Shown here: positions 17,306 to 20,151 of the stretch, one piece after another
Layout: the number at the start of each line of letters is the position of its first letter
Position numbering within the stretch: the first letter of the stretch is position 1
Translations under genes and position numbers: made by a program
Notes under the pieces: generated by a model
Databases searched by the model: none
Told to the model about the DNA's origin: nothing
What the model saw: only the letters and a program-made list of their open reading frames with translations
Sequence record: OR896157.1
Length of the DNA: 64,000 nucleotides
Source: a phage
Strand: one strand, 5' to 3'

Positions 17306-17382
17306 TGGTGACCCCAGCAGGACTCGAACCTGCAACCTAGCGATTATGAGTCGCGTGCTCTAACCAATTGAGCTATAGGGCC
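17306..17382 (-). tRNA. tRNA-Ile2-like (CAU)
   Basis: anticodon loop cuCAUaa; body very similar to E. coli tRNA-Ile(LAU) as recalled. Confidence 0.55.
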
Positions 17383-17896: not shown

Positions 17897-17971
17897 TGGA
17901 GCATCCAGAGAGAATCGAACTCTCATCTACTGGGTGGAAGCCAGTCATAATAGCCGCTATACGATGGATGC
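17897..17971 (-). tRNA. tRNA-Gly(UCC)
   Basis: anticodon loop cuUCCac. Confidence 0.6.
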
Positions 17972-17976
17972 AATTT

Positions 17977-18070
17977 GTACGGAACGCCTGGATTCGAACC
18001 AGGTTAAATTGCGATTGACGTCACAATTTATCTTATGAAGGCCATGCCTCTACCATATCCGAACGTTCCG
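17977..18070 (-). tRNA. tRNA-like element, anticodon unresolved (possible pseudo-tRNA)
   Basis: good acceptor cggaacg/cguuccg and T-arm ccugg-UUCGAAU-ccagg, but no clean anticodon stem; contains uuCAUaa and an 8-bp extra hairpin. Confidence 0.35.
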
Positions 18071-18121
18071 TCAAAAACGCTACTCGGCTTACGGCTTAGG
18101 CAATTCCTCGAACCGATAATT

Positions 18122-18195
18122 TGGCAGGCCCCGTAGGAATCGAACCCACGTCACTGAGGTTGGAGCTCAGGATAATACCACTATACGAGAGACCT
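18122..18195 (-). tRNA. tRNA-Trp(CCA)
   Basis: anticodon stem cugag/cucag, loop cuCCAac. Confidence 0.6.
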
Positions 18196-18199
18196 AAAA

Positions 18200-18293
18200 T
18201 GGAGGAAGCGGTGGGATTCGAACCCACGGACCGTATCACTACGGCCTCCGCATTTCAAGTGCGGTGCAATTAACCAGACTCTGCCACGCTTCC
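18200..18293 (-). tRNA. tRNA-Ser(UGA), class II
   Basis: 94 nt, anticodon stem ccgca/ugcgg, loop cuUGAaa, long variable arm. Confidence 0.65.
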
Positions 18294-18373: not shown

Positions 18374-18587
18374 ATCAATATTCACTCCAGCAATCATGAT
18401 GCCTTCACACGAAATTGAGAGAAGAGTGATCAGTTCAACCCTTGTAGACGCGTCAAGTAAATATTGATGTGACAGCTTATTTAAGAAGAGTGAGAGTCCC
18501 AGTCTTGTACGGAGTAACCATTTATGCATTGGCAGCTATCGCGCGGTTCGCACTTCCGATAAATGGACTTACCGTTACACTCTAATT

Positions 18588-18668: not shown

Positions 18669-18743
18669 TGGAGGCGGGTGATGGACTCGAACCATCGCGT
18701 AACGGGATATGAACCCGTCATTCTACCAACTGAAGTTAACCCG
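18669..18743 (-). tRNA. initiator-like tRNA-Met(CAU)
   Basis: loop uuCAUau, GGG/CCC at bottom of anticodon stem, unpaired 1:72. Confidence 0.5.
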
Positions 18744-18898
18744 CATCTATCCGGATTCTTGAAGTACTAACAAGTAGCTTGATGTAGAACACGCTAAAGA
18801 TATAATCTTACGAATATAGAGCTTATTCCGTGGGAACAAACAGCTTCGTCCTCGGCATTATCTTACAGGACTCTGACTTATCTTCAAGAACTGCCTCG

Positions 18899-19363
18899 TT
18901 ATTTTATGAACTTATTTATGAATCGTCTAGCTTGAGTATGACTGACTCCAAGTTCATTTGCAAATTTTACTAATGCACCACGTTTTGTGAAATCAATAGA
19001 ATTATATAAATCTATTCTTAAAGCAATTTCATCTGCAGTGAATTTATGAGCATGATTTTCTGATATTTTTATTTTTGTTTCATCAGAATGATTATGTCCA
19101 GTAAAACCAGTAGATACGATTCTTCCATTTGCGCCAGCGTCTTTAGCATTTTGCGCATTAGTTGCGCAATAAATGTTATCCAAAGAATATGGTCCAACAT
19201 CTCCTTTACGACACATACAATAATTATCTGAGGCTCTACCGCGCAAATGATATTTGCCAGTAGCTTTCCACCATGATAGCCATTCATCAAATGTCAGTTT
19301 AAATTCAATACCTCTTGATTTAGCATGCACTTTTTGCATGCGATACTTTTCATAATCTTTCAT
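18899..19363 (-). CDS. homing endonuclease-like protein
   Basis: GHNHSDETKIKIS (NUMOD3-like) and C-terminal helix-turn-helix ELGVSHTQARRFINK; embedded in tRNA cluster. Confidence 0.5.
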   Translation of the reverse strand: MKDYEKYRMQKVHAKSRGIEFKLTFDEWLSWWKATGKYHLRGRASDNYCMCRKGDVGPYSLDNIYCATNAQNAKDAGANGRIVSTGFTGHNHSDETKIKISENHAHKFTADEIALRIDLYNSIDFTKRGALVKFANELGVSHTQARRFINKFIK

Positions 19364-19377
19364 ATTACTCTCATATT

Positions 19378-19454: not shown

Positions 19455-19699
19455 ATAAATTTACTTTCGTGAGTATGGGATTACCCTCAAGCCTTCCGGA
19501 AAGCTGAATAGGCGTTATTGGCTCTCATATACCCGTGCACAGATATAATCTTCATTAACGCAATAACTTCATCAATATACTCCGAAAGTAAACTTTCGGC
19601 GCCGTATTTAATTTTGACTGTGTAGTTATCGTTGAGGGAACTCACAGACAGGGATTAAAGTGCCGACGACTTATCAGAACGTCTTCTGACTTCTACATT

Positions 19700-19784
19700 T
19701 GGCGGGCCGTGCAGGTATCGAACCTGCCTAGTCATTTCTGACACGGATTAACAGTCCGTCGCTTACCCTCTCAGCCAACGACCC
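19700..19784 (-). tRNA. tRNA with GUU anticodon (Asn) but class-II architecture
   Basis: anticodon arm acgga-cuGUUaa-uccgu, discriminator G, 3-bp D-stem, 15-nt variable arm guca-gaaa-ugac. Confidence 0.5.
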
Positions 19785-20063: not shown

Positions 20064-20151
20064 TGGTGGGGAGTGATGGAGTCGAACCACCCGAGTCGCA
20101 ATGACAACAGATTTACAGTCTGCACCGCTACCTCTACGGAATTAACTCCCC
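20064..20151 (-). tRNA. tRNA-Tyr(GUA), class II
   Basis: 88 nt, loop cuGUAaa, discriminator A, long variable arm. Confidence 0.6.

What the first reader, a model, noticed from the sequence alone, without database searches (positions are those of the whole stretch)
17977..18070. tRNA-like element with intact acceptor and T-arm but no convincing anticodon stem
Acceptor and T-arm are canonical, and an anticodon-like loop uuCAUaa is present, but its flanks do not pair. An 8-bp hairpin with a 6-nt loop occupies the variable region. It could be a decayed tRNA or another tRNA-like stable RNA.
Basis: seen in the sequence. Interest (0 to 1): 0.4.

Follow-up and report, generated by a model that had tools for sequence, protein, structure and literature searches.

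The report
Phage T4 "species 1" RNA homolog
The "tRNA without an anticodon stem" is the back two-thirds of a 139-base stable RNA known from phage T4 since the 1970s (rnaC), so it is an ordinary, already-named gene of unknown function that tRNA software mislabels as tRNA-Met.

Summary
But the element is cut short. It is the 3' part of a 139-nt ortholog of phage T4 rnaC ("species 1 RNA"), window 18116→17978. It sits between tRNA-Trp and tRNA-Gly in the tRNA array of a T4-like (Karamvirus) phage.

Twenty-nine distinct homologs from at least nine phage genera share one covariation-supported fold. That internal strand belongs to a 70-nt hairpin. The "variable-arm hairpin" is a conserved 10-bp arm. 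The "anticodon" CAU lies in a non-conserved linker.

The two hairpin loops (UUGACG and CGUCAA) are exactly complementary in every homolog. They change together to UUGGCG and CGCCAA in one clade, which suggests a kissing-loop contact.

It is not a tRNA and not a decayed tRNA. It is a tRNA-end mimic, probably excised like a tRNA. The papers read here call the function of T4 RNA C unknown. Identity is near certain, novelty is low, and the ARAGORN/GenBank "tRNA-Met" label is wrong.

The parts
17978..18116 (-). Whole rnaC (T4 species 1 RNA) ortholog, 139 nt. The ends are set by homology to the T4 annotation and may be off by 1-2 nt.
   Evidence: blastn of T4 rnaC against the window: 139/139 nt, 79.1% identity, E = 4.7e-30. 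CM R1 hit at 17975-18121, 149 bits. T4 annotation.
18109..18115 (-). 5' strand of the acceptor-like stem, CGGUUCG. It pairs with 17980-17986, with two invariant U.U mismatches in the middle.
   Evidence: RNAalifold consensus. Third pair is G-C in 18 and A-U in 11 distinct sequences; the other four pairs are invariant.
18039..18108 (-). Arm 1: a 70-nt irregular hairpin. Its base is the invariant AGG/CCU helix (18106-18108 with 18039-18041).
   Evidence: MFE fold. Helices 3-6: 16 of 17 pairs have compensatory changes between two sequence types.
18069..18074 (-). Loop 1, UUGACG. It is invariant apart from the A-to-G change in the Marfavirus clade. Proposed kissing partner of loop 2.
18031..18038 (-). 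Single-stranded linker UCAUAAGA. It holds the chance 'anticodon' CAU (18037-18035). CAU is not conserved (the T4 linker reads UUUAAAAA).
   Evidence: Alignments. ARAGORN does not call the T4, mogra, VR7, Marfa, IME523 or EcS1 homologs.
18005..18030 (-).
   Evidence: Helix 8: 8 of 9 pairs have compensatory changes. Loop complementarity is 100% over 29 sequences.
17987..18003 (-). T arm, CCUGG-UUCGAAU-CCAGG. It directly abuts the acceptor 3' strand.
   Evidence: Middle pair covaries: UA 15, GC 11, AU 1.
17980..17986 (-). 3' strand of the acceptor-like stem, CGUUCCG.
17976..17979 (-). Discriminator-like U (17979) followed by ACA. Marfavirus homologs encode U-CCA at this place.
18122..18195 (-). 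Upstream tRNA-Trp, which ends in an encoded CCA. A 5-nt spacer AAUUA (18121-18117) lies before the RNA.
17897..17971 (-). Downstream tRNA-Gly. A 6-nt spacer (17977-17972) follows the RNA.

Best explanation
**What it is.** The element is part of a 139-nt ortholog of bacteriophage T4 rnaC (species 1 RNA), window 18116→17978 on the minus strand. It lies inside the tRNA operon of a T4-like Karamvirus phage.

**Shown here.**
- It is homologous to T4 rnaC over its full length.
- It has a covariation-supported fold. The 5' and 3' termini form a 7-position acceptor-like helix (5 Watson-Crick pairs and 2 invariant U.U mismatches). This helix abuts a canonical 5-bp T stem and T loop, and is followed by a discriminator-like U and then ACA (CCA in one clade).
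- The D arm and anticodon arm of a tRNA are replaced by a 70-nt hairpin and a 10-bp hairpin.
- The 6-nt loops of those two hairpins are exactly complementary in all homologs.

**Inferred.**
- The RNA is transcribed with the flanking tRNAs. The spacers are 5-6 nt, like the spacers between tRNAs.
- The acceptor/T minihelix lets RNase P and the 3'-end trimming enzymes excise and stabilise it like a tRNA.
- The two loops form a kissing contact, either within one molecule (locking the body) or between molecules.
- Having no anticodon arm, it does not decode. My best guess, at roughly 25-30%, is that it acts in trans as a non-decoding tRNA mimic that engages a factor recognising tRNA ends. The papers read here call the function of T4 RNA C unknown.
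For: **Identity.**
- The 150-nt query that adds the upstream 'spacer' matches T4 rnaC at 80.4% over 148 nt, and 759 phage records in all.
- T4 annotates rnaC as 'small, stable RNA; species 1 RNA'.
- T4 rnaC aligns to window 18116..17978 over 139/139 nt, E = 4.7e-30.

**Structure.**
- The RNAalifold consensus uses the 5'-terminal strand.
- On the 29-sequence alignment, 98.0% of cells are paired and 27 of 45 pairs have compensatory changes. Slid controls give 36-48%.
- The acceptor's third pair is G-C in 18 and A-U in 11 sequences.
- In the full-length RNA the MFE fold is -49.7 kcal/mol.

**Kissing loops.**
- All 6 pairs form in all 29 sequences. A-U changes to G-C in the Marfavirus clade.
- The mixed combination UUGACG/CGCCAA would lose about 5 kcal/mol.

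**tRNA-like end.** U-CCA is encoded in Marfavirus homologs, where the others have U-ACA.

**Not a tRNA.**
- The Rfam tRNA model gives no hit even at E<=10. The only match is tRNA-Sec at 18.7 bits against a cut-off of 47.
- ARAGORN's cloverleaf has defective D and anticodon stems.

**Literature.**
- In T4 one precursor transcript yields the eight tRNAs and the species I and II RNAs (PMC2330249).
- RNA C accumulates late in infection and is seen on a northern blot, with function unknown (PMC9697503; PMC3014915; PMC12685909).
Against: - There are no expression or end-mapping data for this phage. The ends are taken from the T4 annotation.
- Four of the five acceptor pairs and the AGG/CCU helix never vary, so they are neither supported nor contradicted by covariation.
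- The kissing contact rests on one compensatory event in one clade plus invariance.
- The internal strand can still pair with the 3' end in T4-type sequences (85% of cells), so a minor alternative conformer is not excluded.
- The trans-acting 'mimic' role is inference only.
- No conserved protein neighbour and no host homolog were found.
Confidence: 0.8

Rival explanations
1. It is a genuine 95-nt tRNA-Met (or tRNA-Ile2) with anticodon CAU and a long variable arm. ARAGORN calls it so, and GenBank annotates it so in PG7, SonariX and id4496.
For: ARAGORN call at 17977-18071 and its cloverleaf with an 8-bp acceptor and a perfect T arm. GenBank tRNA-Met features.
Against: - The Rfam tRNA model gives no hit at E<=10.
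- The D stem has 2 good pairs of 4. The anticodon stem has 2 mismatches.
- CAU and the putative acceptor 5' strand are not conserved among orthologs.
- ARAGORN calls none of the six homologs scanned (T4, mogra, VR7, Marfa, IME523, EcS1).
- The window already has two other CAU tRNAs.
Confidence: 0.02
2. It is a decayed tRNA pseudogene drifting inside the tRNA array.
For: The acceptor-like and T-arm parts are tRNA-like, while the D and anticodon regions look degenerate.
Against: - The 'degenerate' regions are conserved helices with many compensatory changes, and the loops are invariant across at least nine genera.
- The gene is kept in phages where no tRNA lies nearby (mogra, VR7).
- The T4 ortholog is an abundant stable RNA.
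Confidence: 0.03
3. It is only a cis-acting processing, punctuation or stabiliser element of the tRNA precursor. On this view it provides a long double-stranded arm for RNase III entry and a tRNA-like end for RNase P, and has no function of its own once excised.
For: - It is embedded in the polycistronic tRNA transcript. In T4 it is the last gene before termination (PMC2330249).
- Arm 1 is a long, nearly double-stranded hairpin.
- From my memory, not checked here: T4 species I RNA is cleaved by RNase III in vitro (Paddock et al., 1976).
Against: - It accumulates as a discrete stable RNA late in infection (PMC9697503).
- Invariant, mutually complementary loops and a conserved arm length are not needed for processing.
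- Its position in the array differs between genera, and in some it stands without adjacent tRNAs.
Confidence: 0.12
4. It is a conformational switch. The internal strand ACGGAACG and the 5'-terminal strand CGGUUCG compete for the same 3' strand. One form would be the 139-nt fold and the other a 95-nt tRNA-like fold, for example after cleavage within arm 1.
For: In the window the internal strand makes 7 perfect pairs, against 5 pairs and 2 U.U for the terminal strand. Across 22 homologs 85% of cells can pair.
Against: - There are no compensatory changes. One position is broken in 13 of 22 sequences, and all measures fall below the shuffles.
- The strand is absent from the type-B homologs: VPA32, Melville, PEi20, Ursula, Kosakonia phage 305 and the Marfavirus clade.
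- The alternative fold is 7.6 kcal/mol less stable and loses the T arm.
Confidence: 0.03

Closest known systems
Bacteriophage T4 rnaC (species 1 RNA, RNA C; NC_000866.4 70908-71046)
   Same: Full-length sequence homology (79-80%). Same length (139 nt). Same consensus fold with compensatory changes. Same strand and setting inside the tRNA gene cluster. Same invariant loops and T arm.
   Different: - Here it lies in the middle of the array, between tRNA-Trp and tRNA-Gly. In T4 it lies at the end, after rnaD.
- No rnaD homolog is present in the window.
- The third acceptor pair is G-C rather than A-U, and the arm 2 stem is largely rewritten.
- Its linker happens to read CAU, which triggers the ARAGORN tRNA-Met call.
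Canonical bacterial or phage tRNA (Rfam RF00005), including tRNA-Met and tRNA-Ile2 with anticodon CAU
   Same: An acceptor-like helix of seven positions directly abutting a 5-bp T stem with a UUCGAAU loop. One unpaired nucleotide follows the helix. It is placed in a tRNA array with tRNA-like spacers.
   Different: - It has no D arm and no anticodon arm.
- The acceptor carries two U.U mismatches.
- It is 139 nt long.
- ACA rather than CCA follows the discriminator.
- The tRNA covariance model does not match.
Non-decoding tRNA mimics excised by tRNA enzymes: the tmRNA tRNA-like domain, mascRNA/menRNA, bacterial YrlA Y-RNA-like RNAs (comparison from general knowledge)
   Same: They work in a similar way. 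An acceptor/T-arm module gives recognition by tRNA-processing enzymes, while the rest of the molecule is not a tRNA.
   Different: - There is no sequence or model match to any Rfam family.
- ARAGORN makes no tmRNA call.
- It has no G3:U70 pair and no tag reading frame.
- Unlike YrlA, the termini here form the acceptor itself.
phi29 pRNA and other RNAs with complementary loop pairs (comparison from general knowledge)
   Same: Two loops within one RNA are complementary to each other.
   Different: The sequence and fold are unrelated. The complementarity here is 6 nt. There is no evidence of multimerisation or of any packaging role.

Membership tests
T4 rnaC / species 1 RNA | Sequence homology to T4 rnaC over the full length | tested here: met
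   139/139 nt aligned, 79.1% identity, E = 4.7e-30. 80.4% over 148 nt.
T4 rnaC / species 1 RNA | A shared secondary structure kept through compensatory changes | tested here: met
   RNAalifold: 26 of 40 pairs compensatory. 98% of cells paired and 27 of 45 pairs compensatory on 29 sequences.
T4 rnaC / species 1 RNA | Encoded within the phage tRNA gene cluster, on the same strand as the tRNAs | tested here: met
   It lies between tRNA-Trp and tRNA-Gly on the minus strand. Compare the T4 layout.
T4 rnaC / species 1 RNA | Accumulates as a stable RNA of about 140 nt processed from the tRNA precursor | not testable with these tools
   Known for T4 only (PMC2330249; PMC9697503). No expression data exist for this phage.
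T4 rnaC / species 1 RNA | Adjacent rnaD (species 2 RNA), as in T4. This is not a strict requirement. | tested here: not met
   No rnaD homolog in the window; best E = 2.9. Several other genera also lack it next to rnaC.
Canonical tRNA (tRNA-Met or tRNA-Ile2, anticodon CAU) | A cloverleaf with a D arm and a 5-bp anticodon stem with a 7-nt loop, matching the tRNA covariance model | tested here: not met
   No RF00005 hit at the gathering threshold or at E<=10. ARAGORN's stems carry 2 mismatches each.
Canonical tRNA (tRNA-Met or tRNA-Ile2, anticodon CAU) | Anticodon and acceptor pairing conserved among orthologs | tested here: not met
   CAU is absent from T4 and most homologs. The internal acceptor pairing has 0 compensatory changes and is broken at one position in 13 of 22 sequences.
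tRNA-Sec | Match to Rfam RF01852 at or above its gathering score, with the extended acceptor/T and D stems paired | tested here: not met
   18.7 bits against a cut-off of 47, E = 0.27. D and anticodon stems are flagged as non-pairing.
tmRNA | A tRNA-like domain together with a tag-peptide reading frame | tested here: not met
   ARAGORN reports no tmRNA. There is no Rfam tmRNA match. No conserved ORF is present.
Kissing-loop RNA (a structural class, not a family) | Two hairpin loops that are complementary, with the complementarity kept when the sequence changes | tested here: inconclusive
   6 of 6 pairs form in 29 of 29 sequences. One double change, A-U to G-C, occurs in a single clade. Physical pairing was not testable.

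The most novel reading that the evidence does not exclude
RNA C is a trans-acting tRNA mimic of a kind not yet described. Its acceptor/T-arm end carries a body held together by a conserved 6-bp loop-loop contact (UUGACG:CGUCAA), or joined into multimers by it. An internal-loop GG may dock on the T loop like G18/G19 of a tRNA. In this form it would bind or titrate a host or phage factor that recognises tRNA ends, for example a tRNA-targeting defence enzyme or a maturation enzyme. I did not find the loop-loop contact or the encoded CCA in one clade mentioned in the papers I could read.
Probability: 0.3. Interest if true: 0.6.

Novelty: new member of a known kind. Interest (0 to 1): 0.3.

Why it matters
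**Annotation.** A false tRNA-Met is called by ARAGORN, and it is deposited for PG7 and apparently for SonariX and id4496. Spurious small CDSs are annotated over the same RNA in Marfavirus genomes. Both errors distort tRNA counts and codon-usage arguments for these phages. The locus should be labelled rnaC.

**Biology.** rnaC is an orphan: the 2010, 2022 and 2025 papers read here all call its function unknown, although from memory it was first sequenced in the 1970s. The comparative model built here gives concrete things to test. These are the true acceptor pairing with two invariant U.U mismatches, the two exactly complementary loops, the U-ACA versus U-CCA 3' end, and the retention of the gene where flanking tRNAs are gone.

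Tried and rejected
- **Rfam.** I searched at the gathering threshold over the whole window and at E<=10 over 17900-18200. No family covers the element. The only match was tRNA-Sec at 18.7 bits.
- **Coding.** Only short ORFs overlap the element, and they also overlap the neighbouring tRNAs. No ORF is conserved among homologs.
- **Terminator.** The U-run at 18077-18073 first looked like a terminator tail. It is in fact one strand of arm 1, and the scan reports no terminator there.
- **rnaD.** No homolog is present in the window.
- **More distant relatives and new loop variants.**
  - Three IMG/VR pattern scans were run, with nhmmer over all the fetched loci and a CM search of 100 of them.
  - One metagenome scan was run, with nhmmer filtering.
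  - Nearly all pattern matches were chance.
  - True members all belong to enterobacterial T4-like phages and fall into only two loop/3'-end classes.
- **Host homolog.** There is no match in 5,426 complete E. coli genomes.
- **Literature.** No paper in the library assigns a function. Miller et al. 2003 and the 1970s sequencing papers are not held.
- **Serratia phage CHI14.** The CHI14 tRNA locus that was fetched has no rnaC hit.

Full report
**Observation.**

The window carries a minus-strand array of tRNA genes between about 14.8 and 20.2 kb (ARAGORN, 19 genes; Rfam tRNA, 19 hits).
- CGGAACG (18070-18064) can pair perfectly with CGUUCCG (17986-17980).
- There is a textbook T arm, CCUGG-UUCGAAU-CCAGG (18003-17987).
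- UUCAUAA lies at 18039-18033, and its flanks pair poorly.
- There is a hairpin with the 6-nt loop CGUCAA at 18030-18005. It has 10 bp, not 8.

ARAGORN calls 17977-18071 a 95-nt tRNA-Met(CAU). Its own drawing shows an 8-bp acceptor, a D stem with 2 good pairs of 4, and an anticodon stem with two mismatches and a G-U. The Rfam tRNA model does not match at the gathering threshold or at E<=10. The only overlapping hit is tRNA-Sec at 18.7 bits against a cut-off of 47, with its D and anticodon stems flagged as non-pairing.

**Identity.**

The region belongs to a T4-like phage of the genus Karamvirus. It is 95-98% identical to Enterobacter phages UFV01, PG7 and SonariX.

I queried the element together with the 50-nt "spacer" upstream of it. 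The match ran over the whole 148 nt to T4 rnaC at 80.4% identity, and to 759 phage records in all. T4 annotates this gene as "small, stable RNA; species 1 RNA", 139 nt, next to rnaD in the tRNA cluster. T4 rnaC aligns to window 18116..17978 over 139 of 139 nt, E = 4.7e-30. rnaD has no counterpart in the window.

The finding is therefore the 3' two-thirds of an rnaC ortholog. The "spacer" after tRNA-Trp is its 5' third.

**Structure.**

Folding the full-length RNA changes the picture (for the window, for T4).
- The internal ACGGAACG pairs with the upstream U-run inside a long hairpin.
- The 3' strand pairs with the true 5' end.

I collected homologs from the phage collection, IMG/VR and metagenomes. 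I screened them with nhmmer and aligned them (A2). I also aligned them to a covariance model (R1; A3). This gave 29 distinct sequences from Karamvirus, Tequatrovirus, Mosigvirus, Gaprivervirus, Moonvirus, Kanagawavirus, Gelderlandvirus, Kagamiyamavirus, Marfavirus and unclassified relatives.

The RNAalifold consensus has five parts.
- An acceptor-like stem: 18115-18109 with 17986-17980, with two invariant U.U mismatches in the middle.
- An invariant AGG/CCU helix.
- A 70-nt arm 1.
- An 8-nt linker, followed by the 10-bp arm 2.
- One A, followed by the T arm.

On A3, 98.0% of cells are paired and 27 of 45 pairs have compensatory changes. Partners slid by 1-3 columns give 36-48%. Arm 1 exists in two quite different sequence types, T4-like and Melville/VPA32-like, that keep the same helices.

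The acceptor's third pair is G-C in 18 sequences and A-U in 11.
- It has no compensatory change.
- It is broken at one position in 13 of 22 sequences.
- It scores below every shuffle.
- It is absent from the second sequence type.

In the full-length window RNA, forcing that pairing costs 7.6 kcal/mol and destroys the T arm. The CAU lies in the unpaired linker and is not conserved; T4 reads UUUAAAAA there. ARAGORN makes no call on the T4, mogra, VR7, Marfa, IME523 or EcS1 homologs.

**A candidate tertiary contact.**

Loop 1 (UUGACG, 18074-18069) and loop 2 (CGUCAA, 18020-18015) are exactly complementary, and the complementarity stops at the loop boundaries. All six pairs form in all 29 sequences. 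In the Marfavirus clade the loops read UUGGCG and CGCCAA, a double change that keeps the pair. The mixed combination A/C would lose about 5 kcal/mol.

This is one evolutionary event. I rate a real loop-loop (kissing) contact, within one molecule or between molecules, at about 0.6.

The same clade encodes U-CCA after the acceptor helix, where all others have U-ACA. This underlines how tRNA-like the 3' end is.

**How it most likely works.**

*Shown here:* the homology, the fold, the placement, and the absence of any anticodon arm.

*From the literature:*
- In T4 one precursor transcript of about 1.75 kb yields the eight tRNAs and the species I and II RNAs (PMC2330249).
- RNA C accumulates late in infection and is detectable by northern blot (PMC9697503).
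- Its role is unknown (PMC3014915; PMC12685909).

*From my memory, not checked here:* Paddock and Abelson sequenced species I RNA in 1973-75, and it is an RNase III substrate in vitro.

*Inferred:*
- The RNA is transcribed with its tRNA neighbours. The spacers are 5 nt and 6 nt, like those between the tRNAs.
- Its acceptor/T minihelix lets RNase P and the 3'-end enzymes cut it out and stabilise it.
- It cannot decode.
- My best guess for its role, about 25-30%, is a trans-acting tRNA-end mimic that binds or titrates a tRNA-recognising factor.

A purely cis-acting processing role is the main rival. Three things argue against it.
- The RNA accumulates as a stable species.
- The loops are invariant.
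- The gene is kept next to rnaD in mogra and VR7, with no tRNA in the fetched 673-nt loci.

**Comparison with known families.**

Membership in the rnaC family is met on sequence, structure and genomic setting. Expression was not testable.

Membership in tRNA, tRNA-Sec and tmRNA was tested and not met. No Rfam family covers rnaC. No E. coli genome holds a relative.

The family appears confined to enterobacterial T4-like phages. A CM search of 100 of the pattern-matched IMG/VR loci, and nhmmer over all fetched IMG/VR and metagenome loci, added no distant members.

**Verdict.**

- The thing itself is an ordinary ortholog of a long-known but functionally orphan phage RNA.
- Interest is low to moderate (0.3).
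- The useful products are a corrected annotation and a covariation-based structural model with testable predictions.

Noticed in passing
window 14972-15056 (-) and 19700-19784 (-): The tRNA-Cys(GCA) and tRNA-Asn(GUU) genes are both 85 nt long and have long, class II-like variable arms (Rfam alignments). That is unusual for Cys and Asn. The Cys gene has U73. This may be an identity-switched tRNA.
   Followed up: partly
window 20067-20151 (-): Rfam finds a tRNA here at 39.1 bits, with anticodon GUA (Tyr) and a long variable arm. ARAGORN did not report it.
   Followed up: partly
L051 595-742, L099 5957-6104; also L261, L274, L323 (Kanagawavirus eclm lineage): In this lineage the rnaC T loop reads UGCAUGC, which contains the palindrome GCAUGC, instead of UUCGAAU. 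The otherwise invariant GG just 5' of the CCU strand reads CG. This could be a joint change in a G18/G19-to-U55/C56-like elbow contact (G.U and G-C becoming C-G and G-C). It could also be coincidence in a single lineage.
   Followed up: partly
L052, L056, L057, L067, L083, L089, L288, L325 (Marfavirus clade): These rnaC homologs encode U-CCA at the 3' end, where all others have U-ACA. They also carry the changed loop pair UUGGCG/CGCCAA. The deposited annotations of the two records examined (VAC36 and Marfa) place a 45-aa 'hypothetical protein' over the RNA, and Marfa's also a ribosome-binding site.
   Followed up: partly
GenBank KJ101592/NC_023561 (PG7) 75846-75940; PQ898399 (SonariX); PQ824230 (id4496): The rnaC ortholog is deposited as a 95-nt tRNA-Met in PG7 (feature seen directly). 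A tRNA-Met feature also lies under the match in SonariX and id4496. VPA32 and others leave the locus unannotated.
   Followed up: yes
L061 (Escherichia phage mogra), L062 (vB_EcoM_VR7): The rnaD-rnaC pair is kept between protein-coding genes. ARAGORN finds no tRNA in the 673-nt loci. This suggests selection that does not depend on a surrounding tRNA array.
   Followed up: partly
window 17306-17382 and 18669-18745 (-): Two further CAU-anticodon tRNAs are present. They are presumably drawn from the initiator, elongator-Met and Ile2 types. I did not work out their identities.
   Followed up: no
window 18374-18587, 18746-19377, 19455-19699: These are gaps of 214, 632 and 245 nt inside the tRNA array. 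The middle gap holds a 154-aa minus-strand ORF (18899-19363) and promoter-like sites. The other two gaps were not examined for further structured RNAs.
   Followed up: no
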